Shown here in pieces: positions 11,023 to 28,273 of a stretch of 36,754 bases of DNA. Under the pieces are notes generated by a model. That model searched no databases and was not told where the DNA came from. It saw only the letters and a list, made by a program, of their open reading frames with translations. The DNA is taken from assembly GCA_042216675.1 (NCBI GenBank), contig JBDGTS010000042.1:1-36754 (forward strand), read 5' to 3'. The position numbers were made by a program, and so were the translations under genes. This stretch comes from Halobacteriaceae archaeon. GTDB taxonomy: Archaea; Halobacteriota; Halobacteria; Halobacteriales; Halobacteriaceae. Position 1 is the stretch's first letter. Each line of letters starts with the position of its first letter.

Positions 11023-12039
11023 GTGCCCGACCACGAGTTCGGCTTCGAGATGCGGGTCTGTGGCTGGGCCGAGCGGTCGTGGCCCCCCGATAGCCCCCGC
11101 GCCGACGACACCGCCGTCGTCGTCGGCCGGCAACTCGGCACCCAGCGGCGCCGCTGGGACACGGTGGTCATCGAGGCTGACGCCGTGGCGCTGGCCCGCC
11201 GCGCGGTTTTCGGGGCCGACAAACTCGACTCGGACCTCCGTCACGTCGTCCGGCACGCACCGGCGGACTGGGCGTGGTACCGCGACGCCCTCCCGGACCC
11301 CGGCTACCCGTGGCGCTACGTCCGCGCGGCCGTCCACCGCGCCGCCGGCCGTGGCGTCGTCGAGAAGCGGCGGTCCGGCAACCGCATCCAGATCAAGCGC
11401 ATCGCATCCTACCCCGACTGGGCCGAGCGCGTCGTCGCCATCGAGAACAAGCCGGACCTCACCGCGAGCGCCGCCCGTGACCTCGCCACACAGATTCAGC
11501 GCGACGTGGCGCGGGGCCTCGCCGACGAGGTGTGGGTCGCGACGGCGGCGACGGGCGAGCGCATCGAACCGGTCCTCCTCGAAGACATGCCCGTCGAGGC
11601 GGGCGTCCTCGTCTTCGACTTCGACGCCGACGACCCCGCGAGCGTCGCGTGGCACCCCCGCTCGCTCGGCGATGCAGGGGGGACGCGCATCGTGGACCGC
11701 GAGGGCGGCGAGTTCGAGTACACCGACCCCGAGGCCGAGCGCGAGCGCCGCCGCGGCATCGCCGAACGCGCCTACGGCCGCGGCTGGCGGTCCTTCGCGG
11801 ACACGATGCGTCCCGACTGCCGGCACTTCCACCTCCGGCGCGACGAGACGGGACGGACGCTCGTGCCGTGGTGTGGCGCCCTCGGCCGCGAGCAGTCCGG
11901 CGCGGAGTGTGCCGGCGACTGCCCGCACTTCGAGCCGGAGCCGCCGACGTGGCGCCAGCGCGGGTGGCCAATCGAGGGCGGCCCCGGAACCCGGCTCAAG
12001 ACGCTGCTCGACGAGCGACGGAACCGCGTCAGGAAGTGA
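11023..12039 (+). CDS. DUF5787-family protein (probable PD-(D/E)xK fold with Cys cluster)
   Basis: EFGFE N-terminus, RRWD, IENKPDL, DEVWVAT and four C-terminal Cys; resembles the haloarchaeal DUF5787 family. Confidence 0.8.
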   Translation: MPDHEFGFEMRVCGWAERSWPPDSPRADDTAVVVGRQLGTQRRRWDTVVIEADAVALARRAVFGADKLDSDLRHVVRHAPADWAWYRDALPDPGYPWRYVRAAVHRAAGRGVVEKRRSGNRIQIKRIASYPDWAERVVAIENKPDLTASAARDLATQIQRDVARGLADEVWVATAATGERIEPVLLEDMPVEAGVLVFDFDADDPASVAWHPRSLGDAGGTRIVDREGGEFEYTDPEAERERRRGIAERAYGRGWRSFADTMRPDCRHFHLRRDETGRTLVPWCGALGREQSGAECAGDCPHFEPEPPTWRQRGWPIEGGPGTRLKTLLDERRNRVRK

Positions 12040-12514
12040 CTTCGACCGAGAGTTCGTCGCGGGACGTGGCGAGGCGGAACGTCGGCACCGTCCGGTACTC
12101 GGTGGTGACGACGCCCTTGCGCTTCAGGCGCTGGAGGGCGCGCCGCACCTCGTCGGCCGACGGGTCGGCGTCGTACTTGTCTCGGATCTTGTGCAGGACC
12201 GAGACGACGCTCTCCGAGCGCTCCTCGGGACCCGCCAGCACGCCGATGACCTTCGATTCGAGGTCGGTGACGCTCACCGTCTGCTCGACGTCCTCGGTGT
12301 CCACGAGGTCGCTGACGAGGTCCGCCGCCTCCGCCGTCGCGCGGACGAGGCTGTCCTCGTCGCGGTAGTAGTAGTCCCGGAGTTCCGCTTCGAGATACTG
12401 GTGGACCTCGCTCCCGCTCTCCATGTCCCAGCGCTCCTGCAGGTCGGCGTTCTTCGTCGGCTGCAGTTCGACGATGTCCGCGAGGCGCTCCCGCGCCTCC
12501 TCCGAGAGGTCCAT
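12029..12514 (-). CDS. DUF5797-family protein (winged-helix-like)
   Basis: LQPTKNADLQERW..ESGSEVHQYLE motif; C-terminal VRRALQRLKRKGVV...TFRL wHTH pattern. Confidence 0.8.
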   Translation of the reverse strand: MDLSEEARERLADIVELQPTKNADLQERWDMESGSEVHQYLEAELRDYYYRDEDSLVRATAEAADLVSDLVDTEDVEQTVSVTDLESKVIGVLAGPEERSESVVSVLHKIRDKYDADPSADEVRRALQRLKRKGVVTTEYRTVPTFRLATSRDELSVEVTS

Positions 12515-12599
12515 GCGTCGCGTTTCGCTGGGGGGTCACTTGCGCCTTTGGAAGCGAATGGGGCAGACAGTTACGGTCGTCGGGGTCGTTTGTGACCCC

Positions 12600-12857
12600 A
12601 TGGCACGCGAAGTCCGCCTCAACAACCTCGACGGGGTGCTCGCGGAACTCGACTACCCGGTTTCCCACGGCGCCGCGGCCGCGGAACTGAGCGACGTGAC
12701 CCTCGTGTACGCCGACGGGACGGAGAACCTCTCGAAGGTTTTCGACCGCATCGAGGACGACAGTTTCGCCGACGCCGACGACCTGCGCGGGTCGGTGTTC
12801 GGCGCCCTCCCCACCGAGGCCGTCGGCGAACCCGGGCAGTCCGAAGGCGAGGGGTAG
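12600..12857 (+). CDS. DUF5789-family small acidic protein
   Basis: 85 aa, LDYPVS...DDLR...EAVGEPGQSEGEG. Confidence 0.75.
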   Translation: MAREVRLNNLDGVLAELDYPVSHGAAAAELSDVTLVYADGTENLSKVFDRIEDDSFADADDLRGSVFGALPTEAVGEPGQSEGEG

Positions 12858-12899
12858 AGCGTCGCACTTATCCACCCCCGTCGGCTAATTCTGCCAACG

Positions 12900-13211
12900 A
12901 TGGAGTTCTGCGACGAGTGCGGTTCGATGATGAAGGCCGACGACGGCCTGTGGACGTGTACCAGTTGCGGCAACGAGCAAATCAAGGACCCCGAGGCATC
13001 CTACGTCCTCACCGAGGGCCAAGAGGCGACGGAGGTCATCGAGAGCAGTGGCGAGGGACAGGGCCTCCCGAAGACGGACGCCAAGTGCGAGGAGTGTGGC
13101 AACGACGAGGCCTTCTGGTACATGCAACAGATCCGCGCGGCTGACGAGAGCGAGACGCGCTTCTTCGTCTGCACCGAGTGCGAGCACAAGTGGCGCGAGG
13201 ACGACAACTGA
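12900..13211 (+). CDS. tfs: Transcription factor S (RpoM/TFS)
   Basis: FCDECGSMM zinc ribbon and QIRAADESETRFFVCTEC catalytic loop. Confidence 0.95.
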   Translation: MEFCDECGSMMKADDGLWTCTSCGNEQIKDPEASYVLTEGQEATEVIESSGEGQGLPKTDAKCEECGNDEAFWYMQQIRAADESETRFFVCTECEHKWREDDN

Positions 13212-14024: not shown

Positions 14025-14404
14025 TCCAGCAGTTCGACCGCGGCGGCGAGGTCGCCGTCAGTCGCTTCCAGCGCTTCGCGAGCGTCGGCCTCGGACGCGC
14101 CCGTTCGCTCCGCGACGATGTCCACGTCGGCTTGGGGAACCTCGGAGACACCCTCGTCCTCGTCCGCGCCCTCGATTTCCGGTTCGCTCTCGCGCTCCTC
14201 GTCGGGTTCGCCGACGACGCTGTAGGTCTGCTGACCGCGGGCGTCCATCCGGGTGACCTCGGGGTCCTGAAAGACGAGTTCCGTGCCGTCTTCCAGCCGG
14301 ATGACGACCTCTTCGGCGTCGAGTTCGTCCATGTCGACGCCCATCTGTTCCATCATCTGTTGCATCTTCTGGGGGTTCATGCCGCCGCCGCCTCCTCCAA
14401 ACAT
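14021..14404 (-). CDS. nac: Nascent polypeptide-associated complex protein
   Basis: [17 protein letters not shown] domain and C-terminal UBA ([30 protein letters not shown]). Confidence 0.95.
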
Positions 14405-14452
14405 ACCTCGAAAGTCGCGCCCCGCGACAAAAAGCGTGTGGGATTCGGCCGC

Positions 14453-14809
14453 TCACACGACGACGACGGGCACCGTCGCGGCGTCGAGCATCGCCGTCGC
14501 CGTCTCCCCGAGGTCAGACGCGCCGGGGTCGCTCCGCGCGGCGAGGACGACCTCGTCGGCGCCGAACGCATCGACGGCGGCGCGCAGTTCCGCGACGGGG
14601 TCGCCCTCGCGCGTCTCCGTTTCGGCGTCGGCCGTCGGCAGGCGAACTGTGACGACGTTCAGTGCCTCCGCCGCGTCCCGTTCGTCGGTGTCGCCGCCGG
14701 CGACGGCCACCGCGCGCACCGCGTCGTCCGGGCCGATGCGGTCCTGCAGGTAGTCACACGCCGCGGCCGTCGCGTGGACCGAATCGGTGGCAATCAGAAA
14801 GCGCGTCAT
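14453..14809 (-). CDS. Universal stress protein
   Basis: FLIATDS...REGDP...DEVVL...LGETA..ML..ATVPVVVV USP pattern. Confidence 0.85.
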   Translation of the reverse strand: MTRFLIATDSVHATAAACDYLQDRIGPDDAVRAVAVAGGDTDERDAAEALNVVTVRLPTADAETETREGDPVAELRAAVDAFGADEVVLAARSDPGASDLGETATAMLDAATVPVVVV

Positions 14810-15267
14810 TCGGCTCCCTCGCGGACGCGCACGGCCATTCCGGTGTCGAAGTCGGCCATCGCCCCCGCGTCGAGTTCCGCGCGGCCCACCCCGAGCAGGT
14901 CGCCGTCCTCGTGGACGACGGCCACCTCGTCGCGGGCGCGGAGGTCCGGGGCCGCCTCGACGACGAACTTCGCGAACACGTTTTTCGCCTCGCGGACGAA
15001 CGGTTCGGACTCGTCGCCGACGACGACGCGGCCCTGTGGAGCGCCGAGCGCCGAGAGCAGGCGGCGGCCCCCCGCGAGGCCGAGGGTGAAACGGCCGTCC
15101 ATTCCGACGGAGACGAGTCGCTCGCCGTCGGCGGCCACCTGTCGCGGCCGGCCGGACTTCGAGCGAGTCACCGAGAGGTCGTCGTCGGGGGGAAACAGCG
15201 CCGCGCCGGCGCCCGCGCCGAACTGGTAGTCAGCGACGGTTCGGAGCGAGGCGAGGTCCCGGGGCAT
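14806..15267 (-). CDS. PUA-domain protein (archaeosine TGT C-terminal-like)
   Basis: ADYQFGAG, KNVFAKFV, DEVAVV..DGDLLGVG, GMAVRVREG. Confidence 0.88.
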   Translation of the reverse strand: MPRDLASLRTVADYQFGAGAGAALFPPDDDLSVTRSKSGRPRQVAADGERLVSVGMDGRFTLGLAGGRRLLSALGAPQGRVVVGDESEPFVREAKNVFAKFVVEAAPDLRARDEVAVVHEDGDLLGVGRAELDAGAMADFDTGMAVRVREGAE

Positions 15268-15350: not shown

Positions 15351-15524
15351 ATGAACAACACGCAGGTCGTGGCCGGACTCGCGCTGGTCGTGGTGGGCGC
15401 GGCGCTGATGTTCGCCACGGGCGTCGCGGGGAGCACGCTTCCGGTCCTCGTCGCCTCCGTCGGTGCGCTGGCGCTGGCGGCGGGCACATTGCTCGTCGGC
15501 ACGTCGAAGTCCCGGCAGGTGTAG
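15351..15524 (+). CDS. Small two-helix membrane protein (57 aa)
   Basis: TTTTATTA box at 15320-15327 ahead of ATG 15351; two hydrophobic segments. Confidence 0.75.
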   Translation: MNNTQVVAGLALVVVGAALMFATGVAGSTLPVLVASVGALALAAGTLLVGTSKSRQV

Positions 15525-15525
15525 G

Positions 15526-16023
15526 TCAAAGCAGGAACGTCTCGATACGTTCGCTCAGGTCCACGAAGGCGTCAGTCGCATCGACGAGCGACTCCGCCGT
15601 CGATTCCGAGAACGCCATCACCTCGACGCGGACGCCCTCGTGGCGCAGATGCGAGCAGAGTCGCGCGAAGTCCCCGTCGCCGGTGCAGAGCACCACCGTG
15701 TCGACGTGGTCCGCGAGGGTGACGGCGTCGAGGCTCATCCCCACGTCCCAGTCCGCCTTCTTCGTCCCGTCGCCGAACGTCTTGATTTCCTTTATCTTCG
15801 TCTCGAAGCCGATGTCCTCCAGCGCCTCGAAGAAGCTCTCCTCCTCGGGGGAGTCCGCGCGGATGACGTAGGCGAGCGCCCGCGTGAGTCGCCTGTCGGC
15901 GACGGCCGCCGAGAGCAGGGCGTCGTAGTCGACGTTCCGCGAGTGGAGACTCTGAGCCGTGTGATACAGATTCTGCGCGTCGGCGAGGACCGCCACCCGC
16001 TGGTCGGGCTGCGTGACTGGCAT
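15526..16023 (-). CDS. NYN-domain (LabA-like PIN) protein
   Basis: DAQN, KADWDVGMSLD and TGDGDF motifs. Confidence 0.92.
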   Translation of the reverse strand: MPVTQPDQRVAVLADAQNLYHTAQSLHSRNVDYDALLSAAVADRRLTRALAYVIRADSPEEESFFEALEDIGFETKIKEIKTFGDGTKKADWDVGMSLDAVTLADHVDTVVLCTGDGDFARLCSHLRHEGVRVEVMAFSESTAESLVDATDAFVDLSERIETFLL

Positions 16024-16047
16024 ACCGGGCGTTCACGCGGGTGGCCC

Positions 16048-16695
16048 TTACCTCTGACCGTCGCCGGGCGTCTCGTGACGCGTCAGGTCGAGCGTCTCGG
16101 GGTCGAGCGCGTAGTAGGCCTCCCACGCCGGCGCGAGCGAGACGACGCGGGTGTCGCCGAACGTCGTCTCGGCGTGTTCGTGGTGGTGACCGACGAGACA
16201 GAGGTCAGGGCGCACGGACTGGAGGACGTCGTCGACGTGCTTGCACCCGACGCCGTACTCCTCGGCGACGGGGAGGCCGTGGGGCGCCTCGTGCGCCAGA
16301 AACACGTCCACGTCGAGGTCCTTCGCCCGTTCCACGTCGTCGCGGACGAAGTGGCGGCGACGGCCGCCAGCGAGTTCCGATCGGTCGCAGTCGAAGCGAG
16401 TCGGCGCGTAGTTGCCCGAGAGGCCGCCGACCCGGAGGCCGTCCACCTCGGCGCTGGTGCTGTGAAGCAGGTGGACGTTCGACGCCTCGGGTGGGGTGTG
16501 GCCCTCCCTGAGCGCCTCGACGACGTCGAAGTCCTCGTTGTTGCCGGCGATGAAGTAGGTTGGAATCGGCACGTCGTAGTGAAGCAGGTCCCCGGCCTGA
16601 AGCGCCACGTCGGCGTCGGCGTCCCGGTAGGCCGAGAGCAGGGCCTCCCGGCGTGGCGCGTCGTCGGCGTGTGCGTCCCCGAGGACCAAGACCAT
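16048..16695 (-). CDS. Metallophosphoesterase
   Basis: GDAH, AGD, GNNE, HEAP and VGHHH motifs; start MVLVLGDAH (alternative start 16701). Confidence 0.88.
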   Translation of the reverse strand: MVLVLGDAHADDAPRREALLSAYRDADADVALQAGDLLHYDVPIPTYFIAGNNEDFDVVEALREGHTPPEASNVHLLHSTSAEVDGLRVGGLSGNYAPTRFDCDRSELAGGRRRHFVRDDVERAKDLDVDVFLAHEAPHGLPVAEEYGVGCKHVDDVLQSVRPDLCLVGHHHEHAETTFGDTRVVSLAPAWEAYYALDPETLDLTRHETPGDGQR

Positions 16696-16741
16696 ACCCA
16701 TCCGCCAGCCGCCGACGACATAAGCCCGGCGGGGGGCCTCC

Positions 16742-16754
16742 GATAAACCTAAAT
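16742..16754 (+). promoter_or_regulatory. BRE/TATA promoter for the dap operon leader
   Basis: gataaa-CCTAAAT with the box starting 30 nt before ATG 16778, the same spacing as CCTAAAC (28325) to the folP ATG (28355). Confidence 0.6.
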
Positions 16755-16777: not shown

Positions 16778-16867
16778 ATGGTTCGCGTCGCGGCGAACGT
16801 CGGCCGGGCGGTCGATGCACCCAGCGACGCGTCCGCTTTCTCCGGCGGTAAGCGCGGGCCGGCGTGA
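16778..16867 (+). CDS. Putative leader peptide (uORF) of the dap/lys operon, 29 aa
   Basis: MVRVAANVGRAVDAPSDASAFSGGKRGPA*; ATG at the leaderless position behind the TATA box; single Lys codon near the end. Confidence 0.5.
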   Translation: MVRVAANVGRAVDAPSDASAFSGGKRGPA

Positions 16868-16950
16868 GGGCTCGGTGCGGGGGTGGCGCCCCGTTCCGGG
16901 TCCGGGCCGGTCCGCGAGCACCGCCGACGACTACCCACCCCAGTACACAC

Positions 16951-17853
16951 ATGACACGCAACGCCACCGACCTGTTCCACGGCGTCCACCCGGCCATCGC
17001 GACGCCGTTCGCCGACGACGGGAGTATCGACCACGACCAACTCGCCGCCGACGCCCGCCGCCTCGAAGCGGCCGGCGTGGACGGCATCGTCCCCGCCGGG
17101 TCGACCGGCGAGAGTGCGACGATGAGCCACGACGAACACGTCGAGGTCGTCGAGACAGTCGTCGAGGCCGTCGAGGACGTCCCGGTCATCGCGGGCACCG
17201 GGTCGAACAACACCCGGGAGGCGCTCTCGCTCTCTCAGCGGGCGGCCGACGCGGGCGCCGACGCACTCCTCCTCATCTCGCCGTACTACAACAAGCCCGA
17301 ACCCGAGGGGATGGAGCGTCACTTCCGGCGGGTCGCAGACGCCGTGGACCTACCCCAAATCGTCTACAACGTCCCCTCGCGGACCGGGCGCTCCATCGAC
17401 GCCGACACCACCGTCTCGCTGGCGGCCCACGAGAACGTCGTCGGCTACAAGGCCGCCTCGGGGGACCTCGGCCTCGTCAGCGAAATCTGTGAGCGCACCC
17501 GCGACGAGGAGTTCGCCGTCCTCTCCGGCGACGACGGCCTCACGCTCCCCATCCTGAGCGTCGGGGGCGTCGGCGCCATCAGCGTCGCCGCGAACGTCGA
17601 ACCCGAGCGCACCTGCGCGATGGTCGGCGCCGCTCTCGGCGACGACTACGGGCGGGCGCGGGAGATTCACCACGAACTCGGGCCGCTGGTGCGAGCGCTG
17701 TTCACCGAGACGAACCCCATCCCGGTCAAGGAGGCGCTGGCGCTCCGGGGCCACCACGACACCGTGCATCTCCGAGACCCCCTCTCGCGTCTCTCCGAGG
17801 CGAATCGGGAACGACTACGTGCCGCGCTGACCGAACTGGAGGCGGACCGATGA
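16951..17853 (+). CDS. dapA: 4-hydroxy-tetrahydrodipicolinate synthase
   Basis: GSTGES, PYYNKP, YNVPSRTG, GYKAASG and TNPIPVK motifs. Confidence 0.95.
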   Translation: MTRNATDLFHGVHPAIATPFADDGSIDHDQLAADARRLEAAGVDGIVPAGSTGESATMSHDEHVEVVETVVEAVEDVPVIAGTGSNNTREALSLSQRAADAGADALLLISPYYNKPEPEGMERHFRRVADAVDLPQIVYNVPSRTGRSIDADTTVSLAAHENVVGYKAASGDLGLVSEICERTRDEEFAVLSGDDGLTLPILSVGGVGAISVAANVEPERTCAMVGAALGDDYGRAREIHHELGPLVRALFTETNPIPVKEALALRGHHDTVHLRDPLSRLSEANRERLRAALTELEADR

Positions 17854-18611
17854 AACTGGCAGTCACCGGTGCGACGGGACGCATGGGGCGGGAAGTCATC
17901 GCGGCGGCCCACGAACGCGGGGACGAGGTCGCCGTGGCCATCAACCGCGACCCGACGGACGAGACAGTCGAGGGCGTCGACGTCAAGCCGGCGGCGGACC
18001 TCGAAGCTCTGCTCTCGAAGCGGGACGTGAACGCGCTCGTGGACTTCACCGGGCCGGCGAGTTCGCTGGAGTACGTCGACGCGTGCGCCGCGACGGACAC
18101 CACCGCCGTCGTCGGGACGACGGGTTTCGACGAGAGCGACGAGGCGGCGCTCCGCGAGTACGCGACCGAAATCCCCCTGCTGCGGGCCGCGAACTTCGCA
18201 CGCGGCGTGCAGGCGCTCCAGCAAGCCGTCGCCGAAGCCGTCGAGGCGCTCCCCGGCTACGACGTGGAACTCACCGAGACCCACCACAACGCCAAGCGCG
18301 ACGCCCCCAGCGGCACCGCGAAGGAACTGCTCGCCACCGTCGAGAGCCACCGCGACAGCGGCGAACAGGTCCACGGCCGCGAGGGCGAGGCGCCCCGCAC
18401 CGAGACGGAAATCGGCGTCCACGCCCGCCGCGCGGGCGACGTGACCGGCGAGCACGAGATTCTGCTCGCCGACAACCACGAGGTGCTGACGCTGACCCAC
18501 CGCGCGGAGTCCCGCGGGGTGTTCGCGGCCGGCGCTCTCGACGCGGCGGCGTGGCTTGCGGGCAGAGACCACGGCTACTATACCTTCGCTGACGTAGTGG
18601 GCGACACATGA
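17850..18611 (+). CDS. dapB: 4-hydroxy-tetrahydrodipicolinate reductase
   Basis: GATGRMG, GTTG and ETHHNAKRDAPSGTA motifs. Confidence 0.95.
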   Translation: MKLAVTGATGRMGREVIAAAHERGDEVAVAINRDPTDETVEGVDVKPAADLEALLSKRDVNALVDFTGPASSLEYVDACAATDTTAVVGTTGFDESDEAALREYATEIPLLRAANFARGVQALQQAVAEAVEALPGYDVELTETHHNAKRDAPSGTAKELLATVESHRDSGEQVHGREGEAPRTETEIGVHARRAGDVTGEHEILLADNHEVLTLTHRAESRGVFAAGALDAAAWLAGRDHGYYTFADVVGDT

Positions 18612-19441
18612 GCCTGAAGAGCGACGTGAAGTCGCTGTGGGAGCGCTACGAGGAGGACCGGGTCGACGCCGAGTCCGCTCGACCGGGTGACCTCGACGTA
18701 CTCGACGCGTTCCTCGACGACCTCGAGGCCGGCGAGGTGCGCGCCGCGACGAAAGAGGACGGCGAGTGGATCGCCAAGAAATGGGTGAAGCGAGGCATTT
18801 TGCTGAACTTCTCGCTTCGGGAGACGGCGGCCCGCGAGTACGGCGACGTGCGCTACCACGATGTGCTTCCGCTCCGCGACACGGACGACCTCGCGGACCG
18901 CGGCACGCGCAACACGCCGGATGGCACCGCCATCCGCCGGGGGGCCTATCTCGGGAGCGACTGCATCATGATGTCCCCCTCGTTCGTCAACATCGGCGCC
19001 CACGTCGGCGACGGGACGCTGGTGGACTCCTGTGACGTGGTGGGGTCCTGCGCGCAGATCGGCGAGAACGTGAAACTCGGCGCGAACACGGTCATCGGCG
19101 GCGTCCTCGAACCCGTCGAGAGCGCGCCGGTCGTCGTCGAGGACGACGTGGACCTCGGTGCCGGCTGTCGGGTCACCTCCGGCTTCGTCGTCGGCGAGGG
19201 CTCCGTCGTCGCGGAGAACACCCTGCTCACGCCGCGCATCCCCATCTACGACCTCGTGGACGAGGAGATTCGCTACGGCGAACTGCCGCCCGAGCGCCGC
19301 GCCTTCGCCCGCTACGTCGAGTCGAGCGTCAGCGACCACGACCTGTTGCCCGGCGCGGCGTACAAGCCCGCCGTCGTCGCGATGGACGTGGAGGCAGACA
19401 CGCTTGACGCGACCGAACGCGAGCAGGCGCTCCGGGAATGA
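18608..19441 (+). CDS. dapD: Tetrahydrodipicolinate N-succinyltransferase
   Basis: WVKRGILLNF, hexapeptide repeats, VGSCAQIG, IGGVLEP. Confidence 0.93.
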   Translation: MSLKSDVKSLWERYEEDRVDAESARPGDLDVLDAFLDDLEAGEVRAATKEDGEWIAKKWVKRGILLNFSLRETAAREYGDVRYHDVLPLRDTDDLADRGTRNTPDGTAIRRGAYLGSDCIMMSPSFVNIGAHVGDGTLVDSCDVVGSCAQIGENVKLGANTVIGGVLEPVESAPVVVEDDVDLGAGCRVTSGFVVGEGSVVAENTLLTPRIPIYDLVDEEIRYGELPPERRAFARYVESSVSDHDLLPGAAYKPAVVAMDVEADTLDATEREQALRE

Positions 19442-20673
19442 GCGCCGACTCGCCCCTCGTCCGGCGCGTGACGGACTGGGACTTCGACGAACTCGCGGAC
19501 CTCGCCTTCGAGTTCGGGACGCCCCTCTACGTCCTCGACCCCGAGCGGGTGCGGGCGAACTACCGTCGCTTCGCCGACGCGTTTCCCGAGGCCGAGGTGA
19601 TGTACGCGGCGAAGGCCCACACCGGGCAGGCGGTCCTCGAAGCCCTGCTGGACGCCGGTGCGACCATCGAGTGCGCCGCGCGGGGCGAACTCCAGCGGGC
19701 AGTCGAGGCGGGCGCGGACCCCGACACGCTCCAGTACACGGCCGTCAACCCGCCGGACGCCGACCTCGACTACGCGGTCGAACTGGCCGCTGAGCATCCG
19801 GGTCTGACCGTCACCGGCGGTGCGCGAGACACCTTCGACCGCCTCGAAGAACGCGGCTACGACGGCCGCGTCGCCATCCGCATCAATCCCGGCATCGGCA
19901 CCGGCCACCACGAGAAGGTGGCGACGGGGAAGGACGCGAAGTTCGGCATCCCCTACGACGAGGTGCCCGCTCTCGCCGACGACCTCCGGGAGCGCTTCGA
20001 CCTCGTGGGCATCCACGCCCACGCCGGGTCCGGCGTCCTCCACGACGACTTGGCCGACCACTGCCGCGCCATCGCGAAAGTTGCCGACGTGGCCCGCGAA
20101 GTCGGGGACGAGAGCCTCGAATTCGTGGACTTCGGCGGCGGCTTCGGCGTCCCCTACCGGCCCGAGGAGGAGCCACTGGACATGGAGCAAGTCGCCGAGC
20201 AAGTCCGGGGGGCAATCGGTGACCTCGCGGCGACCCCGAAGTTCGAACCGGGGCGCTACGTGGTCGCCGACGCCGAGGTCATCCTCACGGAGGTGAACAC
20301 GGTGAAGGAGACGCCCGCCACCACCGTCGTCGGCGTGGACGCGTCGCTGGCGACGCTCATCCGCCCGGCGATGTTCGACGCCTACCACCCGATGGCGAAC
20401 GTGACGGCGCCCGACCGCGCGGAGGAACCCGTCTCGGTGGGCGGCCCCTGCTGTACGAGCGCCGACGTGTTCTGCACGGACCGGCCGCTCCCCGAACCCG
20501 CGCGGGGCGACGTGCTGGCAATCGGCAACGCCGGCGCGTACGGCTACGAACTCGCGAACCAGTTCCACTCCCAGCCGCGACCCGCCGAAGTCGCACTCGA
20601 AGACGGCGAAGCCCGCGTCGTCCGGCGACGGGAGACGATGGCCGACGTGACCCGCGTCGAACGGGAGCGATGA
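19438..20673 (+). CDS. lysA: Diaminopimelate decarboxylase (atypical active-site residues)
   Basis: GTPLYV, YAAKAH (PLP Lys), KFG, HAHAGS, DFGGG, EPGR and GAYG motifs; located in the dap operon. Confidence 0.9.
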   Translation: MSADSPLVRRVTDWDFDELADLAFEFGTPLYVLDPERVRANYRRFADAFPEAEVMYAAKAHTGQAVLEALLDAGATIECAARGELQRAVEAGADPDTLQYTAVNPPDADLDYAVELAAEHPGLTVTGGARDTFDRLEERGYDGRVAIRINPGIGTGHHEKVATGKDAKFGIPYDEVPALADDLRERFDLVGIHAHAGSGVLHDDLADHCRAIAKVADVAREVGDESLEFVDFGGGFGVPYRPEEEPLDMEQVAEQVRGAIGDLAATPKFEPGRYVVADAEVILTEVNTVKETPATTVVGVDASLATLIRPAMFDAYHPMANVTAPDRAEEPVSVGGPCCTSADVFCTDRPLPEPARGDVLAIGNAGAYGYELANQFHSQPRPAEVALEDGEARVVRRRETMADVTRVERER

Positions 20674-21722
20674 GTTTCGACCCACTCGACTTTCACCGGC
20701 GCGCCGTCGAGACTCCCTCTCACGAGGACGTGGAGCCGATGCGGACCCTGCTGGTCGAGACGCTCCGCGACGCGGGCGCCGACCCGCGCGTCGACGAACA
20801 CGGCGTCGTCCACGCCGTGCGGGGGGCCGGCGACCCGCATCTGGTCCTCAACACCCACATCGACACCGTGGCGCCCCACGTCCCCTACGAGCGAGAGGGG
20901 GAGACGGCCTACGGGCGCGGCGCCTGCGACGCGAAGGGGCCACTCGCGGCCCTCGTCGCGGCGTTCCTCCGCGCGGACGTGGACGGGAAACTGACGCTCG
21001 CGGTGACGCCCGACGAGGAGACGGCCCAGACTGGCGCCGTCGCCGTCGCGGGTACCTTCGACGCCGACGGCTACGTCGTCGGCGAACCGACCGGACTCGA
21101 CGTCTGCACCGCCGCGCGCGGTATGTTCAGCGGCACCGTCGCGCTCCGCGGCGAGGCGGGCCACGCCGCCGACCCGGCGAACGGCGTCAACGCCGTCCGC
21201 GCGGCCGGGCCGGTCCTGCAGGCCATGGACACCTACGACGAGGAACGCGGCCCCGACCCGGACCCGACGCTCGGCGCGCCGACGCTCACGCCGACGCGCA
21301 TCACCGGCGGTGAGGCGCTGAACCAGATTCCCGCCGCGTGCGAGATTACCTTCGACCGGCGGAGCGTCCCGCCGGAGACGGCCGCGGAGTTCCCCGCATC
21401 GCTGGAGGCACACCTCCGTGCGGCCTGTCCCGACGACGTGGACCTCAACGTTTCGCTCACGGGCGACCCCGAGCAGTTCGACGACCCGTTCGTGACGGAC
21501 AGTGACGAACCGCTCGTGCAGGCGCTGGCGGACGCGAGCGGCGGCGAGGTGCGGGCCTTCGGCGCCGCAACCGAGGCATCGCACTTCGCGCCCCACGCGC
21601 CCACCGTCGTCTTCGGGCCGGGCGACCTCTCGGTGGCCCACAGCGCCGACGAGCGGGTCGAACTGCCCGACGTCGAGCGTGCCGCCGCGGCGGTGACGGC
21701 CGCCGTCGAGGAGTTACTCTGA
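20670..21722 (+). CDS. dapE: M20 metallopeptidase, probable succinyl-DAP desuccinylase
   Basis: HIDTV, GRGACDAKG, DEE, GEPT and AHSADE motifs; ATGA-coupled to lysA. Confidence 0.8.
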   Translation: MSFDPLDFHRRAVETPSHEDVEPMRTLLVETLRDAGADPRVDEHGVVHAVRGAGDPHLVLNTHIDTVAPHVPYEREGETAYGRGACDAKGPLAALVAAFLRADVDGKLTLAVTPDEETAQTGAVAVAGTFDADGYVVGEPTGLDVCTAARGMFSGTVALRGEAGHAADPANGVNAVRAAGPVLQAMDTYDEERGPDPDPTLGAPTLTPTRITGGEALNQIPAACEITFDRRSVPPETAAEFPASLEAHLRAACPDDVDLNVSLTGDPEQFDDPFVTDSDEPLVQALADASGGEVRAFGAATEASHFAPHAPTVVFGPGDLSVAHSADERVELPDVERAAAAVTAAVEELL

Positions 21723-25423: not shown

Positions 25424-27001
25424 ATGAAGCTAGCCGGCATGGCGAGCAACAGGGGGCGGAACCTGCGGAACATCGCCGACCGGAGTCCCGGCGGCGCGGA
25501 ACTGGCCGTCGTGGTGACGAACGACGCCGACGCGCCCGTCCTCGACGCGGCGGAAAAGCGGGGGATTCCCACCGAAGTCGTCGAACGCGAGGGCGACAGC
25601 CGCGAGGCCCACGAGGAGCGAATCCTCGACGCACTCGCCGACTACGACTTCGAGATGGTGTGTCTCGACGGCTACATGCGCGTCCTCACCGACACGTTCC
25701 TCGACGCGGCGCCGACGACGCTCAACGTCCACCCGTCGCTCCTGCCCGCGTTCCCCGGGCAGGACGCCCACGAACAGGTCCTCGACGCGGGCGTCAGCGT
25801 CACCGGCTGTACCGTCCACGTCGTCACCGAGGCGGTGGACGACGGCCCCATCGTGACACAGGAGAGCGTGCCCGTCTACGAGGACGATGACGAGAGCGAC
25901 CTGAAGGACCGGGTCCTCCACGAGGCGGAGTTCCGCGCGTACCCCCGCGCCGTGCAGTGGTTCGCGGAGGGCCGCGTGACAGTCGCGGACGACGAGGTCC
26001 ACGTCGAGGGTGACGAGGGTGGCGACTTCCCCGCCCGCCGGAGCGCCTCGGAGGACCGCTTCGCTGACCTGCGCTACGGCGAGAATCCCCATCAGGACGC
26101 CGCCGTCTACGCGGACCCCACCTGCGAGGAGGCGAGCGTCGTCGGCGCCGAGCAGTTGAACCCCGAGGCGAGCGCGCTCTCCTACAACAACTACAACGAC
26201 ACCGACGGCGCGCTGGACCTCATCAAGGAGTTCGAGCGCCCGGCCGCGGCGGTCATCAAGCACGCCAACCCCGCGGGCTGTGCGACGGCCGACACGCTCG
26301 CCGACGCCTACGAGAACGCGCTTGCGACGGACCCAAAGAGCGCCTTCGGCGGCATCGTCGCCCTCAACCGCGAGTGCGACGCCGCCACCGCCGAGCAGAT
26401 CATCGACTCGTTCAAGGTGGTCGTCATCGCGCCCGGCTACACCGACGACGCCCTCGACGTCCTCCGGCAGAAAGAAAGCATGCCCATCCTCGAAGTCGAG
26501 GACCTCGGGCCGGACGCACGCACCGAGACGGTGGCCGAGAAGTCCCTCGTCGGCGGCCGACTGGTGCAGGACCGCGACCTTCAGCGTCTCTCCCGCGACG
26601 ATTTAGAGGTCGTCACCGAGACCGAACCGAGCGAGGAGCAACTGGAGTCGATGCTCTTTGGCTGGCAGGTCGTCAAGCACGTCACCTCGAACGCGGTCAT
26701 CTTCACGAAAGGCACCGAGACGGTGGGCGTCGGCGCGGGCCAACTCTCCCGCGTGGACGCGGTGAAGGTGGCGAAGATGAAAGCCGAGTCCGACGCCGAG
26801 GGGAAGTCCGCCGAGGGCGGCGTGATGGTCTCTGACGCGTTCTTCCCGTTCCCGGACAACATCGAAGTCGCCGCGGAGGCGGGCATCGAGGCCGTGATTC
26901 AGCCCGGCGGCTCCAAGCGCGACGAGGAGGTCATCGAGGCCTGCGACGAACTGGGGCTGTCGATGGTGTTCACGGGGCAGCGGGCCTTCCGGCACGACTA
27001 G
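25424..27001 (+). CDS. purH: PurN-PurH fusion (GAR formyltransferase / AICAR formyltransferase)
   Basis: N-terminal NVHPSLLPAFPG and VTGCTVH..VDDGPI; C-terminal LRYGENPHQ, IKHANP and SDAFFPF. Confidence 0.95.
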   Translation: MKLAGMASNRGRNLRNIADRSPGGAELAVVVTNDADAPVLDAAEKRGIPTEVVEREGDSREAHEERILDALADYDFEMVCLDGYMRVLTDTFLDAAPTTLNVHPSLLPAFPGQDAHEQVLDAGVSVTGCTVHVVTEAVDDGPIVTQESVPVYEDDDESDLKDRVLHEAEFRAYPRAVQWFAEGRVTVADDEVHVEGDEGGDFPARRSASEDRFADLRYGENPHQDAAVYADPTCEEASVVGAEQLNPEASALSYNNYNDTDGALDLIKEFERPAAAVIKHANPAGCATADTLADAYENALATDPKSAFGGIVALNRECDAATAEQIIDSFKVVVIAPGYTDDALDVLRQKESMPILEVEDLGPDARTETVAEKSLVGGRLVQDRDLQRLSRDDLEVVTETEPSEEQLESMLFGWQVVKHVTSNAVIFTKGTETVGVGAGQLSRVDAVKVAKMKAESDAEGKSAEGGVMVSDAFFPFPDNIEVAAEAGIEAVIQPGGSKRDEEVIEACDELGLSMVFTGQRAFRHD

Positions 27002-27210
27002 CGAGGTTCGGAGCGAGCGCCAGCGAGCGACGAACCTCGGAGATGCGAGCGGGGAGGCACGACCCGCGAGCAGTGCGGCGCCAGCGAGCGACGAACCTCG
27101 GAGATGCGAGCGGGGAGGCACGACCCGCGAGCAGTGCGGCGCCAGCGAGCGACGAACCTCGGAGATGCGAGCGGGGAGGGTCGCGAGGCGCGAACAGCGT
27201 GAGCGCCTCG
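27002..27210. repeat. 61-bp tandem repeat (about 2.7 identical copies) built of stem-loops, REP-like
   Basis: Unit gcgccagcgagcgacgaacctcggagatgcgagcggggaggcacgacccgcgagcagtgcg at 27017, 27078 and 27139 (partial, to 27179), with flanking hairpins. Confidence 0.9.
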
Positions 27211-27241
27211 ATGGTACGAGCGGCGAGCCGTCGCGACGGTC

Positions 27242-28273
27242 TCACAGCGGGTCGGGCGTCGCGGGCGCGGTCCGCACCTCGAAGCGGGCGCCGCCGCCCG
27301 CGGCGTCCGTGATCGAAATTTCCCAGCCGTGGGCGTCGACGACGGCGTCCACGATGGGGAGGCCGAAACTCGGCCGGTCCCCGGACTCGTGGGAGTCGAG
27401 TTCGAACACCGACTCCCGGGCGGGCTCGGGGACGCCGGAGCCGTCGTCCTCGACGACGAAGCCCGTGCCGTCGTCGAGGGTGCCGACGCGGACGGCCGGT
27501 GCGGGGCCGGCGTGCTCCACCGAGTTGCGGAACAGGTTCTCGAAGAGGTGCGCGAGCAGACCCGGGTGTGCCGAGAGCGTCAGGTCGGTTGCGACCGTCA
27601 GCGTCGCGTCGCCGGTGGCGACGTGGCTCCACGCCTCGCGGGCGACGGCTTCGAGCGACACCGACTCGCGGTCCAGCGCTGTCGCGCCGATGCGGACGAA
27701 CGTCACCGCGTCCGCGATCATCGTCTCGACGCGGTGGAGCGCCGACAGCGCAGTGTCGAGGTCCTCGGAGGGCCGTTCTTCGGCGGCGAGTTCGATCCGG
27801 CCCAGCGCCACGGTCAGGGGGTTGCGGAGGTCGTGTGACAGCATCCTCGCCACCGACTCGGCGGTGTCGATGCGGCGTTCGAGTTCGAGTTCCGCGATTT
27901 TGCGGTCCGTCACGTCGGTGTGTGCGGTGACGAGGTATCGGTCGCCGCCGACGTCGAAGCGCGAGCCGTAGAGGACGAACCAGCGGCGTTCCGCGGGCGA
28001 GTGGCAGGGGTACTCCAGTTGGAACGACTCTCGGTCCCCGCCCGCCAGTTCCCGAAGGCCAGCGCAGGCCGCCTCGGCGTGGGGGTCGTCGTCCACACAC
28101 TGCTCGAAGTAGTTCTCGCCGACGTTCCCCTCGGGCGAGACGGCGGCGTTCTCGGCGCCGAAGGCGCGCCAACTTCGGTTCGTCCACAGGATGTCGCCCG
28201 ACGCGTCGAGGACGGCGATGTGCGGCAGGAGAGCGTCGAGCGCCGCCGTCGCCACGCCCTCGGGGAGTGCCAT
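27242..28273 (-). CDS. PAS-domain sensor histidine kinase
   Basis: PAS (IAVLD..G.I..TN, EYPCHSP, HTDVT), H-box SHDLRNPL, N-box ENLFRNSVEH, DDGSG, FGLPIV, GGARF. Confidence 0.92.
   Translation of the reverse strand: MALPEGVATAALDALLPHIAVLDASGDILWTNRSWRAFGAENAAVSPEGNVGENYFEQCVDDDPHAEAACAGLRELAGGDRESFQLEYPCHSPAERRWFVLYGSRFDVGGDRYLVTAHTDVTDRKIAELELERRIDTAESVARMLSHDLRNPLTVALGRIELAAEERPSEDLDTALSALHRVETMIADAVTFVRIGATALDRESVSLEAVAREAWSHVATGDATLTVATDLTLSAHPGLLAHLFENLFRNSVEHAGPAPAVRVGTLDDGTGFVVEDDGSGVPEPARESVFELDSHESGDRPSFGLPIVDAVVDAHGWEISITDAAGGGARFEVRTAPATPDPL

What the first reader, a model, noticed from the sequence alone, without database searches (positions are those of the whole stretch)
19438..20673. 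dapF-less lysine operon with a remodelled LysA: candidate L,L-diaminopimelate decarboxylase that bypasses the epimerase
Seen: dapA-B-D-lysA-dapE are all ATGA-coupled with no gap, and there is no dapF. LysA differs at three substrate-pocket motifs: RPAMF for the usual RPxxY, GPCCTSAD for the usual GPxCESxD (20449-20460), and YGYELANQFHSQ for the usual YGxxMxSNYNSR. Known: the succinylase route gives L,L-DAP, canonical LysA only decarboxylates the D-centre of meso-DAP, and, from recall, haloarchaeal operons such as that of Haloferax carry dapF next to lysA. L-specific fold-III ornithine decarboxylases have Phe at the position where DAP decarboxylases have the Tyr of SNYN, and this protein has Phe. 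Inference: this LysA clade may convert L,L-DAP directly to L-lysine, giving a shortened pathway.
Basis: partly seen in the sequence, partly recalled or inferred. Interest (0 to 1): 0.8.

Follow-up and report, generated by a model that had tools for sequence, protein, structure and literature searches.

The report
Epimerase-free lysine pathway with remodelled LysA
A large group of salt-loving archaea, including the well-studied Haloarcula, make lysine without the usual epimerase, using an altered final decarboxylase that probably acts on the still-succinylated intermediate, which would be a new order of steps in a textbook pathway.

Summary
The window holds dapA-dapB-dapD-lysA-dapE joined by four ATGA overlaps, with no dapF. 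LysA has RPAMF, GPCCTSAD and ELANQFHSQ where related LysAs have RPAxY, CE[ST] and Y[NT].

The predicted co-occurrence holds. Of 401 genomes sampled from the same order, 118 carry this LysA variant. 113 of those 118 have no DapF; 279 of the other 283 do. No DapF2-like racemase, Ddh or DapL was found in the 5 variant genomes searched.

- The Glu-to-Thr change removes the residue that binds the distal free amino group. The same engineered change (E315T) in Thermotoga LysA abolishes most DAP activity.
- Two papers report that 13C labelling in Haloarcula hispanica fits the 'dehydrogenase' sub-pathway. By my reading that means no symmetric free LL-DAP, yet no ddh gene exists in the genus.
- DapE splits cleanly with LysA type, whereas DapB and DapD do not.
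- DapE was missing from 20 of 80 variant genomes and 0 of 80 DapF-positive ones.

Best reading (about 45%): LysA* decarboxylates N-succinyl-L,L-DAP, and desuccinylation comes last. Nothing has been tested biochemically. Four variant genomes still keep a DapF, which is unexplained.

The parts
16951..17853 (+). dapA, 4-hydroxy-tetrahydrodipicolinate synthase. The longest ORF starts at GTG 16864; ATG 16951 is the more likely start.
   Evidence: TIGR00674, 327 bits. The Pfam DHDPS match starts at residue 38 of the long ORF. Start codons listed.
17850..18611 (+). dapB, 4-hydroxy-tetrahydrodipicolinate reductase
   Evidence: TIGR00036, 208 bits. ATGA overlap with dapA. In the tree it groups with canonical-type genomes of the window's own family code f1.
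18608..19441 (+). dapD, tetrahydrodipicolinate N-succinyltransferase
   Evidence: NF008808, 274 bits. ATGA overlaps on both sides. No column discriminates variant from canonical genomes, 0 of 276.
19438..20673 (+). lysA*, a remodelled diaminopimelate-decarboxylase-family enzyme (P0001, 411 aa)
   Evidence: TIGR01048, 333 bits against a cut-off of 297.9. The PLP-Lys59, HAHAGSG, GGGFGVPY and EPGRY motifs and Cys339 are kept. 6 of 407 columns fully discriminate variant from canonical LysA.
20068..20070 (+). Ala211 codon; canonical LysAs have Val, Leu or Phe
   Evidence: 86 of 86 variant against 0 of 27 canonical.
20374..20376 (+). Phe313 codon, the F of RPAMF. It stands in place of the Tyr of RPxxY, four residues after the Arg that binds the distal carboxylate.
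   Evidence: 86 of 86 F against 27 of 27 Y. Role of the Arg: Arg285 in TmDAPDC and R343 on the 'specificity helix' in MjDAPDC.
20455..20457 (+). Thr340 codon, the T of C-T-S, next to catalytic Cys339. It stands in place of the Glu that binds the distal amino group of meso-DAP.
   Evidence: 85 T and 1 S against 27 of 27 E. Role of the Glu and effect of E315T. Analogous loss of the acidic residue in FigC.
20551..20553 (+). Leu372 codon; canonical LysAs have Met
   Evidence: 85 L and 1 F against 27 of 27 M.
20563..20568 (+). Phe376-His377 codons; canonical LysAs have Tyr-Asn or Tyr-Thr
   Evidence: 86 of 86 against 0 of 27. The DNA pattern for F-H-S-Q-P-R-P hits 20563-20582.
20572..20574 (+). Gln379 codon; canonical LysAs have Arg
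   Evidence: Q in 7 of the 8 DapF-less LysAs of the first sample, against R in 22 of 22 DapF-positive ones. At least 78 of 86 variants carry the HSQPRP form. Exception: G027 keeps R.
20670..21722 (+). dapE*, an M20 desuccinylase of the clade that travels with lysA*
   Evidence: NF006402, 492 bits. Variant and canonical DapE form one split in the best tree, SH-aLRT 96.
21027..21029 (+). Gln120 codon of DapE*, three residues after the D115-E116-E117 motif. It is the only column that fully discriminates variant from canonical DapE.
   Evidence: 54 Q and 6 M against 25 S and 1 T. Position relative to DEE, and Met at this place in E. coli ArgE. That DEE holds the catalytic Glu is my recall.

Best explanation
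lysA* encodes a remodelled member of the diaminopimelate decarboxylase family that makes the epimerase DapF unnecessary.

The proposed route has four steps.
1. DapA, DapB and DapD make N-succinyl-L-2-amino-6-oxopimelate as usual.
2. A still unidentified aminotransferase gives N-succinyl-L,L-DAP.
3. LysA* binds the free-amine L-end of this still-succinylated molecule through PLP and removes that carboxyl, giving N2-succinyl-L-lysine.
4. DapE*, or another M20 deacylase where DapE is missing, removes the succinyl group last.

On this route neither meso-DAP nor free symmetric LL-DAP is formed.

Shown: the gene set, the residue changes, their distribution and the co-inheritance of lysA* with dapE*.
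Taken from the literature: the role of the replaced Glu and the labelling result.
Inferred: the substrate, the order of steps and the L-configuration of the reacting centre.
For: 1. Distribution.
- 8 of 8 DapF-less relatives carry the variant, against 0 of 22 DapF-positive ones.
- In 401 order-level genomes, 118 carry the variant and 113 of those lack DapF. 279 of the other 283 have it.
- DapF was also not found in 10 of 10 named genomes: Halosimplex pelagicum, Salinibaculum litoreum, Halovenus salina, Halobiforma haloterrestris and six Haloarcula species.
- 0 of 80 named loci have dapF within 6 kb.

2. No other source of meso-DAP. The Ala_racemase family (DapF2-like) scored 0 of 5. Ddh scored 0 of 5 and 0 of 5 over the cut-off. 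DapL scored 0 of 5.

3. The changes are few and specific. Fully discriminating columns: LysA 6 of 407, DapE 1 of 348, DapA 0 of 307, DapB 0 of 247, DapD 0 of 276.

4. Thr340 replaces the Glu that binds the distal free amine. The two Arg that bind the distal carboxylate are kept. Engineered E315T in TmDAPDC lost most DAP activity and preferred 2-aminopimelate, which lacks that amine.

5. Precedent. FigC, an N-citryl-L-ornithine decarboxylase of the DAPDC-related clade, also lost the acidic residue next to the catalytic Cys because its substrate's side-chain amine is acylated. FigC, SbnH and AcsE all act on L-amino-acid derivatives.

6. Labelling.
- H. hispanica LysA has the full variant signature.
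- PMC10433800 and PMC1963480 state that its 13C labelling indicates the dehydrogenase sub-pathway.
- No Ddh was found in 6 of 6 other Haloarcula genomes.
- A route that keeps the succinyl group through decarboxylation gives the same unscrambled label without a Ddh. This last step is my inference.

7. DapE follows LysA.
- The variant/canonical split is one branch in the DapE tree (SH-aLRT 96).
- The same split is rejected for DapB (AU p = 2.8e-7) and DapD (p = 0.0055).
- DapE was over the cut-off in 60 of 80 variant genomes against 80 of 80 DapF-positive ones.

8. In this window DapB, DapA and DapD group with the genome's own family, but LysA is sister to Halosimplex (support 0.969, 83-84% identity). 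The lysA*-dapE* end of the operon was therefore swapped in. The host's existing aminotransferase must then suffice, which argues for an L reacting centre.
Against: - There is no biochemical test of any step. N2-succinyl-lysine has not been reported as an intermediate; searches found nothing.
- I could not read the primary labelling paper (Hochuli 1999). The 'no scrambling' logic is my reading of two secondary statements, plus recall.
- PMC10433800 also says the dap cluster genes are 'conserved' in Har. hispanica. That could include dapF. I did not search the H. hispanica genome itself.
- 5 of 118 variant genomes have a DapF-family gene. In G334 and G411 it sits directly upstream of lysA*. In G210 it is 3 kb away. 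These three and G288 lack DapE. This pattern is unexplained.
- No column in the lid region (about residues 148-175) discriminates the groups. describes the lid as forming the reactive carboxylate site, so the reacting-centre stereochemistry may be unchanged.
- No new cationic residue for the succinyl carboxylate is evident, and Arg379 is replaced by Gln.
- Only 2 well-supported independent variant/canonical contrasts could be shown, and 7 on all branches. The large counts are therefore not independent.
- The window's own genome is 80% complete.
Confidence: 0.45

Rival explanations
1. First reader's model. DapE frees L,L-DAP as usual, and LysA* decarboxylates one L-centre of free L,L-DAP directly to L-lysine.
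For: - The same co-occurrence of the variant with dapF absence applies.
- No other meso-DAP source was found.
- There is a precedent for slow L,L-DAP turnover: the diatom DAPDC converted about 50% overnight.
- Positions 372, 376 and 377 lie a few residues after the GAY tyrosine that contacts the PLP phosphate. They could bear on stereochemistry at the reacting centre.
Against: - L,L-DAP keeps a free distal NH3+, yet the Glu that binds it is replaced by Thr. E315T in TmDAPDC loses DAP activity.
- Free LL-DAP is symmetric and should scramble label. This conflicts with the 'dehydrogenase-like' labelling reported for H. hispanica.
- The model does not predict that DapE co-varies with LysA. It also does not predict DapE loss from 20 of 80 variant genomes and 0 of 80 DapF-positive ones.
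- The diatom enzyme's change is in the EPGR Arg, which is kept here.
Confidence: 0.15
2. LysA* still decarboxylates a D-centre. An unrecognised enzyme supplies it. This could be a D-specific aminotransferase or dehydrogenase acting on N-succinyl-2-amino-6-oxopimelate, or a non-homologous epimerase. The substrate would be N-succinyl-meso-DAP or meso-DAP.
For: - The lid region has no discriminating column.
- E315T kept its D-preference.
- The haloarchaeal DapC is unknown and is not ArgD, so the aminotransferase step is open.
- A D-centre always made at the pyruvate-derived carbon would also give unscrambled label (inference).
- Four variant genomes keep DapF, three of them near lysA*.
Against: - No gene is conserved next to lysA* other than the dap genes. 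The commonest variant-only neighbour clusters occur in 28 and 26 of 87 loci, and their example sequences look to me like a membrane transporter and a phosphoribosyltransferase (not searched).
- No DapF2-like racemase or Ddh was found.
- The PhzF-like weak hit also occurs in canonical genomes.
- Swapping only the lysA*(-dapE*) end of the operon seems to be enough. That is hard to reconcile with a need for another new enzyme.
- If the substrate were plain meso-DAP, the loss of the Glu would be unexplained.
Confidence: 0.2
3. LysA* is bifunctional. It first epimerises one centre of L,L-DAP on PLP, as fold-type III racemases do, and then decarboxylates it.
For: - The fold is shared with alanine racemase. 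Many cluster members carry a precomputed weak PF01168 hit.
- No separate epimerase was found.
Against: - PF01168 gave no match at E 0.01 or better anywhere in 5 variant genomes, LysA* included.
- The route would pass through free symmetric LL-DAP, which conflicts with the labelling reports.
- Loss of the distal-amine Glu is not explained.
Confidence: 0.05
4. There is no functional link. The substitutions are clade-specific drift, and dapF is absent because the pathway is decaying or the assemblies are incomplete.
For: - The window's genome is 80% complete.
- lysA* carries in-frame stops in G210, G148 and G074.
- Only 2 well-supported independent contrasts could be shown.
Against: - Closed genomes at 98-99% completeness lack DapF (G025, G028). 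So do 113 genomes of the order-level sample, in which 387 of 401 genomes are at least 90% complete.
- All six discriminating residues are invariant or nearly so across 86 sequences, while the other operon proteins show no such columns.
- H. hispanica makes its own lysine through DAP.
- A similar x-[S/T]-F-H signature recurs in a separate, distant LysA clade.
Confidence: 0.05

Closest known systems
Canonical meso-diaminopimelate decarboxylase (LysA, TIGR01048; e.g. E. coli 1KNW, A. aeolicus 2P3E, T. maritima, M. jannaschii 1TWI)
   Same: Same fold and domains (PF02784 and PF00278). It scores over the TIGR01048 cut-off. The best PDB matches are all DAPDCs. The PLP-Lys, HxHxGSG, GGG and EPGR motifs, the RP Arg and the catalytic Cys are kept. 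It holds the same place in the dap operon.
   Different: It lacks the distal-amine Glu (Thr340), both Tyr (Phe313, Phe376) and the Asn (His377). Leu372 and Ala211 also differ. In 113 of 118 genomes it occurs without any DapF.
Engineered T. maritima DAPDC E315T (PMC8277567)
   Same: The same Glu-to-Thr substitution next to the catalytic Cys. The engineered enzyme stops preferring DAP and prefers a substrate without the distal amino group.
   Different: It is a single laboratory mutation. It stayed D-specific and was tested on 2-aminopimelate, not on N-succinyl-DAP. The natural variant carries five further fixed changes.
FigC/FslC N-citryl-L-ornithine decarboxylase and its relatives SbnH, AcsE and BtrK (PMC7857480)
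   Same: These are DAPDC-related fold-III decarboxylases that act on amino acids whose side-chain group is acylated or carrier-bound. The acidic residue next to the catalytic Cys is lost (Met355 in FigC). The pathway logic is also the same: decarboxylate the acylated intermediate and so bypass a missing step.
   Different: They form a separate clade. The FslC model NF041039 scores 31.6 bits against a cut-off of 500. LysA* sits inside the haloarchaeal LysA clade as sister to the canonical enzymes. They make siderophores or antibiotics, not lysine.
Stereopromiscuous diatom DAPDC PtLYSA (bioRxiv 10.1101/2020.10.01.322594)
   Same: A LysA reported to give L-lysine from L,L-DAP, slowly.
   Different: Its key change is Arg to Thr in EPGR, and CES is kept. 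Here EPGR is kept and CES is changed.
Carrier- or acyl-protected routes in which deprotection is the last step (the LysW/ArgW-mediated lysine and ornithine pathways with LysK/ArgE)
   Same: The alpha-amino protecting group is kept until the end and removed by an M20 hydrolase related to DapE.
   Different: Those routes start from alpha-aminoadipate or glutamate and include no decarboxylation. Here the protecting group would be succinate on a DAP skeleton.
DapF2 (Alr-like PLP epimerase) as a replacement for DapF in Staphylococcus (GapMind 2026, PMC13759103)
   Same: Another known way to do without a canonical DapF.
   Different: No member of that family was found in 5 of 5 variant genomes.

Membership tests
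Diaminopimelate decarboxylase LysA (TIGR01048 equivalog) | Fold-type III PLP decarboxylase domains and a whole-protein score over the curated cut-off | tested here: met
   PF02784 at 4e-42 and PF00278 at 2.5e-21. TIGR01048 scores 333 bits against a cut-off of 297.9.
Diaminopimelate decarboxylase LysA (TIGR01048 equivalog) | Cofactor and catalytic residues: PLP-Lys, HxHxGSG, GGG, EPGR and the catalytic Cys | tested here: met
   All are conserved in variant and canonical sequences.
Diaminopimelate decarboxylase LysA (TIGR01048 equivalog) | Distal L-centre recognition: the Glu of CES binds the free amino group, and the Tyr of RPxxY is present | tested here: not met
   Thr340 and Phe313. Role of the Glu from PMC8277567.
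Diaminopimelate decarboxylase LysA (TIGR01048 equivalog) | Y-N after the GAY motif | tested here: not met
   F376-H377. 119 of 143 diverse representatives carry the Y-E-Y-N signature.
Diaminopimelate decarboxylase LysA (TIGR01048 equivalog) | The genome provides meso-DAP through DapF, DapF2 or Ddh | tested here: not met
   113 of 118 variant genomes have no DapF.
Diaminopimelate decarboxylase LysA (TIGR01048 equivalog) | Decarboxylates the D-centre of meso-DAP | not testable with these tools
   Needs an enzyme assay.
N-acyl amino-acid decarboxylases of the DAPDC-related clade (FigC/SbnH/AcsE/BtrK) | Loss of the acidic residue next to the catalytic Cys | tested here: met
   C339-T340. FigC has C354-M355.
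N-acyl amino-acid decarboxylases of the DAPDC-related clade (FigC/SbnH/AcsE/BtrK) | Sequence membership of that clade | tested here: not met
   NF041039 FslC scores 31.6 bits against a cut-off of 500. BtrK structures rank 16th and 17th of 17 PDB matches. LysA* is sister to the canonical haloarchaeal LysA.
N-acyl amino-acid decarboxylases of the DAPDC-related clade (FigC/SbnH/AcsE/BtrK) | The substrate carries an acyl group on the non-reacting amine, and the reacting centre is L | not testable with these tools
   Inferred only.
Succinyl-diaminopimelate desuccinylase DapE (NF006402), for the downstream gene | Score over the curated cut-off, with the M20 catalytic and dimerisation domains | tested here: met
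   492 bits against a cut-off of 369. PF01546 and PF07687.
Succinyl-diaminopimelate desuccinylase DapE (NF006402), for the downstream gene | Substrate is N-succinyl-L,L-DAP | not testable with these tools
   DapE* forms its own clade and differs at residue 120, next to the DEE motif. The substrate is untested.

The most novel reading that the evidence does not exclude
Many haloarchaea (genome family codes f2 and f13 and scattered others; named members include Haloarcula, Halosimplex, Halovenus, Salinibaculum, Halorhabdus, Halomicrobium, Natrarchaeobius and Halobiforma) may use a so far undescribed 'late-deprotection' variant of the succinylase DAP pathway.

In it, N-succinyl-L,L-DAP is decarboxylated at its L-centre by a LysA-derived enzyme, and N2-succinyl-L-lysine is then desuccinylated. 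meso-DAP and free LL-DAP are never made.

This would explain the 1999 'dehydrogenase-type' labelling in Haloarcula hispanica despite the lack of a ddh gene. It would also be the first L-specific, N-acyl-substrate enzyme inside the LysA clade proper.

The two-gene lysA*-dapE* module would replace lysA-dapF-dapE by horizontal transfer.
Probability: 0.45. Interest if true: 0.85.

Novelty: new variant of a known kind. Interest (0 to 1): 0.8.

Why it matters
- **A textbook pathway.** The DAP pathway has four accepted variants, and all of them pass through meso-DAP before LysA. A fifth variant that skips meso-DAP and reverses the order of the last two steps would change pathway reconstruction. Automated tools currently score these genomes as having a dapF gap.
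- **An old discrepancy.** It would resolve the conflict in Haloarcula between labelling data (the 'dehydrogenase variant') and gene content (succinylase genes, no ddh, no dapF).
- **Enzyme engineering.** It would show how few residues, six fixed positions, retune substrate choice and perhaps stereochemistry in a fold-III decarboxylase.
- **Immediately testable.** Haloarcula hispanica and Haloferax volcanii are both genetically tractable.

Tried and rejected
- **Replacement gene next to lysA*.** I clustered all ORFs in 87 variant and 27 canonical loci and inspected the genes downstream of lysA*. I found only unrelated genes: an endo/exonuclease-phosphatase family protein, MFS and ABC transporters, and proteins with no family. 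The inserts of 0.5-3.8 kb between dapD and lysA* in the loci I inspected (Halosimplex, Haloarcula, Natrialbaceae) hold different genes. Rejected.
- **The weak DapF-like hit in the own genome** (L001) is a PhzF-family protein that canonical genomes also have. Rejected as a specific substitute.
- **Other routes.** DapF2-like Alr, Ddh and DapL were not found.
- **The second LysA clade with the x-[S/T]-F-H signature** (P0128, P0132, P0142, P0151, P0236).
  - The cluster look-up gave no names.
  - The metagenome scan returned mostly canonical LysAs. Only L165, a 5.7 kb contig with no dap neighbours, carried the signature.
  - The protein atlas gave generic DAPDC clusters.
  - A phylum-level sample of 391 genomes held no close homologue.
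  - The organisms and their DapF status remain unknown.
- **Independence.** A test for independent contrasts found 2 well-supported pairs and 7 on all branches. The sign test cannot reach significance.
- **Structure tools.** I did not use structure prediction or complex prediction. They return no coordinates or ligand poses that could decide between the substrates.
- **Papers and supplements I could not see.**
  - Hochuli et al. 1999 (PMC93780) and an id I recalled for Falb et al. 2008 were not held.
  - Crowther et al. 2019 was not found.
  - Figure 4A of PMC10433800 may bear on dapF in H. hispanica.
  - The supplements of GapMind 2026 may list haloarchaeal gaps.
- **Not done.**
  - The H. 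hispanica genome itself was not searched; only its LysA sequence was seen.
  - LysA type was not checked one by one in the 279 DapF-positive genomes. None holds the FHSQP[R/K]P pattern apart from three off-target hits.
  - Rows dropped: for the DapE count, 30 of the 91 FHSQPRP-type variant genomes (every third) were left out because of the 80-handle limit.

Full report
**What is in the window.** The plus strand carries five genes.
- dapA: 16951-17853, with a longer ORF from GTG 16864
- dapB: 17850-18611
- dapD: 18608-19441
- lysA: 19438-20673
- dapE: 20670-21722

Each is named by Pfam and by an NCBIfam equivalog over its cut-off. All four junctions are ATGA overlaps. The surroundings are ordinary haloarchaeal chromosome. 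They include a rhomboid protease, purB, a purN-like/purH fusion, folC-folP, a glycosyltransferase, an S9 peptidase, a glycerol-1-phosphate-dehydrogenase-like gene, a NYN-domain gene and haloarchaeal DUFs. G+C is about 70%. The window is contig C19 of a genome that is 80% complete, with 58 contigs.

LysA (P0001) keeps the cofactor and catalytic motifs of diaminopimelate decarboxylases: PLP-Lys59, HAHAGSG, GGGFGVPY, EPGRY and Cys339. It reads RPAMF, GPCCTSAD and YGYELANQFHSQ where relatives read RPAxY, GPxCE[ST]xD and YGxEMxxxY[NT][ST]R. No DapF is found in the genome. The only weak hit is a PhzF-family protein, which canonical genomes also have.

**The predicted co-occurrence is real.**
- *Relatives.* Among 40 relatives plus the window's genome, all 8 genomes that have a LysA but no DapF carry the variant signature. 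Two of them are single-contig genomes at 98-99% completeness. All 22 DapF-positive genomes whose LysA I extracted carry the canonical one.
- *Operon order.* Canonical genomes have dapA-B-D-lysA-dapF-dapE (26 of 27). Variant genomes have dapA-B-D-lysA with or without dapE.
- *Named genomes.*
  - A scan found 80 loci with LysA 70-84% identical to this one. They include Halosimplex, Haloarcula, Salinibaculum, Halovenus, Halapricum, Natronomonas MAGs and several Natrialbaceae. None has dapF within 6 kb.
  - Ten named genomes searched whole lack DapF.
  - The protein database adds Haloarcula marismortui and H. hispanica, Halorhabdus, Halomicrobium and Halomicroarcula.
- *Order-level sample.* In 401 genomes, 387 of them at least 90% complete, DapF is over the cut-off in 284.
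  - The DNA pattern for F-H-S-Q-P-R-P hits 102 genomes. Three of these hits are off-target, in genomes with a canonical LysA.
  - Of the 23 genomes with neither the pattern nor DapF, 19 have the variant with FHSQP[K/L/C]P. One has a fragmented canonical LysA, and three have no LysA.
  - The Lys-form pattern occurs only in DapF-less genomes, 16 of 16.
  - Result: 118 variant genomes, 113 of them without DapF. Of the other 283 genomes, 279 have DapF.
- *Caveat.* These counts are phylogenetically dependent. Only 2 well-supported independent contrasts could be shown, and 7 on all branches.

**Exceptions.** Five variant genomes have a DapF-family gene.

| Genome | Arrangement | DapE |
|---|---|---|
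| G334 | dapD-dapF-lysA* | absent |
| G210 | dapD-dapF, then lysA* 3 kb away with an internal TAG | absent |
| G411 | dapD-dapF-lysA*, with 2 kb between dapD and dapF | absent |
| G288 | dapF on another contig | absent |
| G348 | weak DapF-like gene about 5 kb from another decarboxylase homologue, on another contig | present |

I cannot explain this pattern. The genus coded g51 holds canonical species, variant species and G288. This suggests recent switching.

**No known alternative source of meso-DAP.** The alanine-racemase family includes the DapF2 epimerase validated in Staphylococcus. It gave 0 of 5 hits. Ddh and DapL were not over the cut-off in 5 of 5 genomes, and Ddh was also absent from 5 further Haloarcula genomes.

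**What the changed residues do.** I compared 86 variant and 27 canonical LysAs. Only six columns separate the groups completely.

| LysA position | Variant | Canonical |
|---|---|---|
| 211 | Ala | Val/Leu/Phe |
| 313 | Phe | Tyr |
| 340 | Thr (Ser once) | Glu |
| 372 | Leu | Met |
| 376 | Phe | Tyr |
| 377 | His | Asn/Thr |

- DapA, DapB and DapD have no such column. DapE has one.
- In T. maritima DAPDC, the Glu next to the catalytic Cys binds the distal, non-reacting amino group. The Arg residues of EPGR and RPxxY bind the distal carboxylate.
- In FigC, a DAPDC-related N-citryl-L-ornithine decarboxylase, the same acidic residue is replaced because the side-chain amine is acylated. The RPxxY Arg lies on the 'specificity helix' that lines the pocket.
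- So the natural variant has lost the partner of a free distal amine and kept both partners of the distal carboxylate. That fits a substrate whose distal amine is acylated. In this pathway that substrate is N-succinyl-DAP.
- The other changes mostly shrink side chains or remove hydroxyls. This is consistent with a larger pocket, but that is an inference.

**Independent experimental hint.** Haloarcula hispanica carries the variant LysA. Two papers state that the 13C-labelling study of Hochuli et al. (1999) showed lysine synthesis by the 'dehydrogenase' sub-pathway, and that no ddh gene has been identified. I could not read the primary paper. From established knowledge of DAP-pathway labelling:
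- The succinylase route passes through free, symmetric L,L-DAP and scrambles the two halves of lysine.
- The dehydrogenase route does not.
- A route that keeps the succinyl group until after decarboxylation is never symmetric, so it would look like the dehydrogenase route.
- A free L,L-DAP decarboxylase would scramble.

PMC10433800 also writes that the dap cluster genes are 'conserved' in Har. hispanica. I found no DapF in six other Haloarcula genomes but did not search H. hispanica itself.

**DapE follows LysA.**
- On FastTree trees the variant/canonical label needs 1 change for LysA and 1 for DapE. It needs 7-8 for DapA, DapB and DapD.
- With IQ-TREE, the split is a branch of the best DapE tree (SH-aLRT 96).
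- Holding the variant rows together is rejected for DapB (AU p = 2.8e-7) and DapD (p = 0.0055).
- The single discriminating DapE column, Gln/Met120 against Ser/Thr, lies three residues after the DEE motif.
- DapE is over the cut-off in 80 of 80 DapF-positive genomes but in only 60 of 80 variant genomes. It is missing from whole genera, such as g41 (0 of 10). It is also missing from the complete Halovenus salina genome.
- A desuccinylase that changes with LysA*, and can be lost only where LysA* is present, fits a changed DapE substrate: N2-succinyl-lysine, which other M20 deacylases might also hydrolyse. It does not fit an unchanged N-succinyl-LL-DAP step.

**History of this locus.** The window's DapB, DapA and DapD group with genomes of its own family code f1, which are mostly canonical. 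Its LysA is sister to Halosimplex (support 0.969, 83-84% identity), and its DapE lies with the variant clade. The lysA*-dapE* end of the operon therefore replaced lysA-dapF-dapE in place. Because nothing else needs to come with it, the resident aminotransferase must serve. That enzyme formerly fed a DapF-dependent route and so makes the L,L product. This argues that LysA* takes an L reacting centre. The argument is an inference, and the unchanged lid region is a point against it.

**Wider family.** Among 143 full-length representatives of LysA diversity, 119 have the canonical four-residue signature. The haloarchaeal variant and canonical clades are sisters (supports 0.95 each, 0.986 together). 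Their nearest outgroup is a small metagenomic clade with F/H/W-S/T-F-H or Y-E-F-H signatures. So a similar combination of residues arose twice or is older than the haloarchaea. I could not identify those organisms.

**Literature.** Searches found no report of an L,L-DAP decarboxylase, a succinyl-DAP decarboxylase or an N2-succinyl-lysine intermediate. They found no note that dapF is missing from Haloarcula. GapMind 2026 does not mention it in the main text passages I searched. I could not see its supplements.

**Verdict.** My best reading, at about 45%, is a late-deprotection succinylase pathway in which LysA* decarboxylates N-succinyl-L,L-DAP and DapE* acts last. It is a new variant of a known pathway. 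It occurs in model organisms and can be tested directly.

Noticed in passing
proteins P0128, P0132, P0142, P0151, P0236 (and P0123, P0139); locus L165:377-1576: A second, distant LysA clade (31-36% identical to P0001) carries a similar F/H/W - S/T - F - H signature. Its basal members read Y-E-F-H. It is the nearest outgroup of all haloarchaeal LysAs. The organisms are unknown. L165 is a 50% G+C contig with no dap neighbours.
   Followed up: partly
G334:C19 (L243), G411:C40 (L244), G210:C1 (L245), G288 (L246, L247): Four variant-LysA genomes keep a true DapF. In three of them dapF lies just upstream of, or near, lysA* in the order dapD-dapF-lysA*. All four lack a DapE orthologue.
   Followed up: partly
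G348:C3 (L249:6025-6798 and 11833-12957): A weak DapF-like gene (149 bits, 41% identity) lies about 5 kb from a 30%-identical fold-III decarboxylase homologue with GPLCYSGD. It sits on a different contig from the dap operon. It may be an unrelated epimerase/decarboxylase pair.
   Followed up: no
G210:C1:270555-271772; G148:C2:890205-891434; G074:C1:1005881-1007107: lysA* carries one in-frame stop codon (TAG, TAG and TAA) in these three genomes. This could mean decay of the pathway, or sequencing errors.
   Followed up: no
window 16864-16951: The longest dapA ORF starts at GTG 16864, but the family match begins at residue 38 and an ATG lies at 16951. The shorter gene is more likely.
   Followed up: partly
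window 25424-27001: A purH-like gene with an N-terminal formyltransferase (PurN-like) domain fused to the AICARFT part.
   Followed up: no
window 27920-30787: A 955-residue fusion of folylpolyglutamate-synthase-like Mur-ligase domains with a pterin-binding (dihydropteroate synthase) domain. An upstream ORF at 27165-27971 has no family match and overlaps its start.
   Followed up: no
G000:C10:24078-24491 (L001): A PhzF-family protein with the DapF-like fold gives the only weak DapF hit. Canonical genomes also have it. Its function is unknown.
   Followed up: partly
loci L046, L047, L052, L058, L061, L070, L094, L099 and others, between dapD and lysA: In many variant operons, 0.5-3.8 kb of unrelated, non-conserved genes sit between dapD and lysA*. 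In the window the two genes overlap. The dapD/lysA* junction looks like a recombination hot spot.
   Followed up: partly
window 14132-15229 and 15463-16746: Long ORFs upstream of dapA with no Pfam match. In 70% G+C DNA these may not be genes.
   Followed up: no
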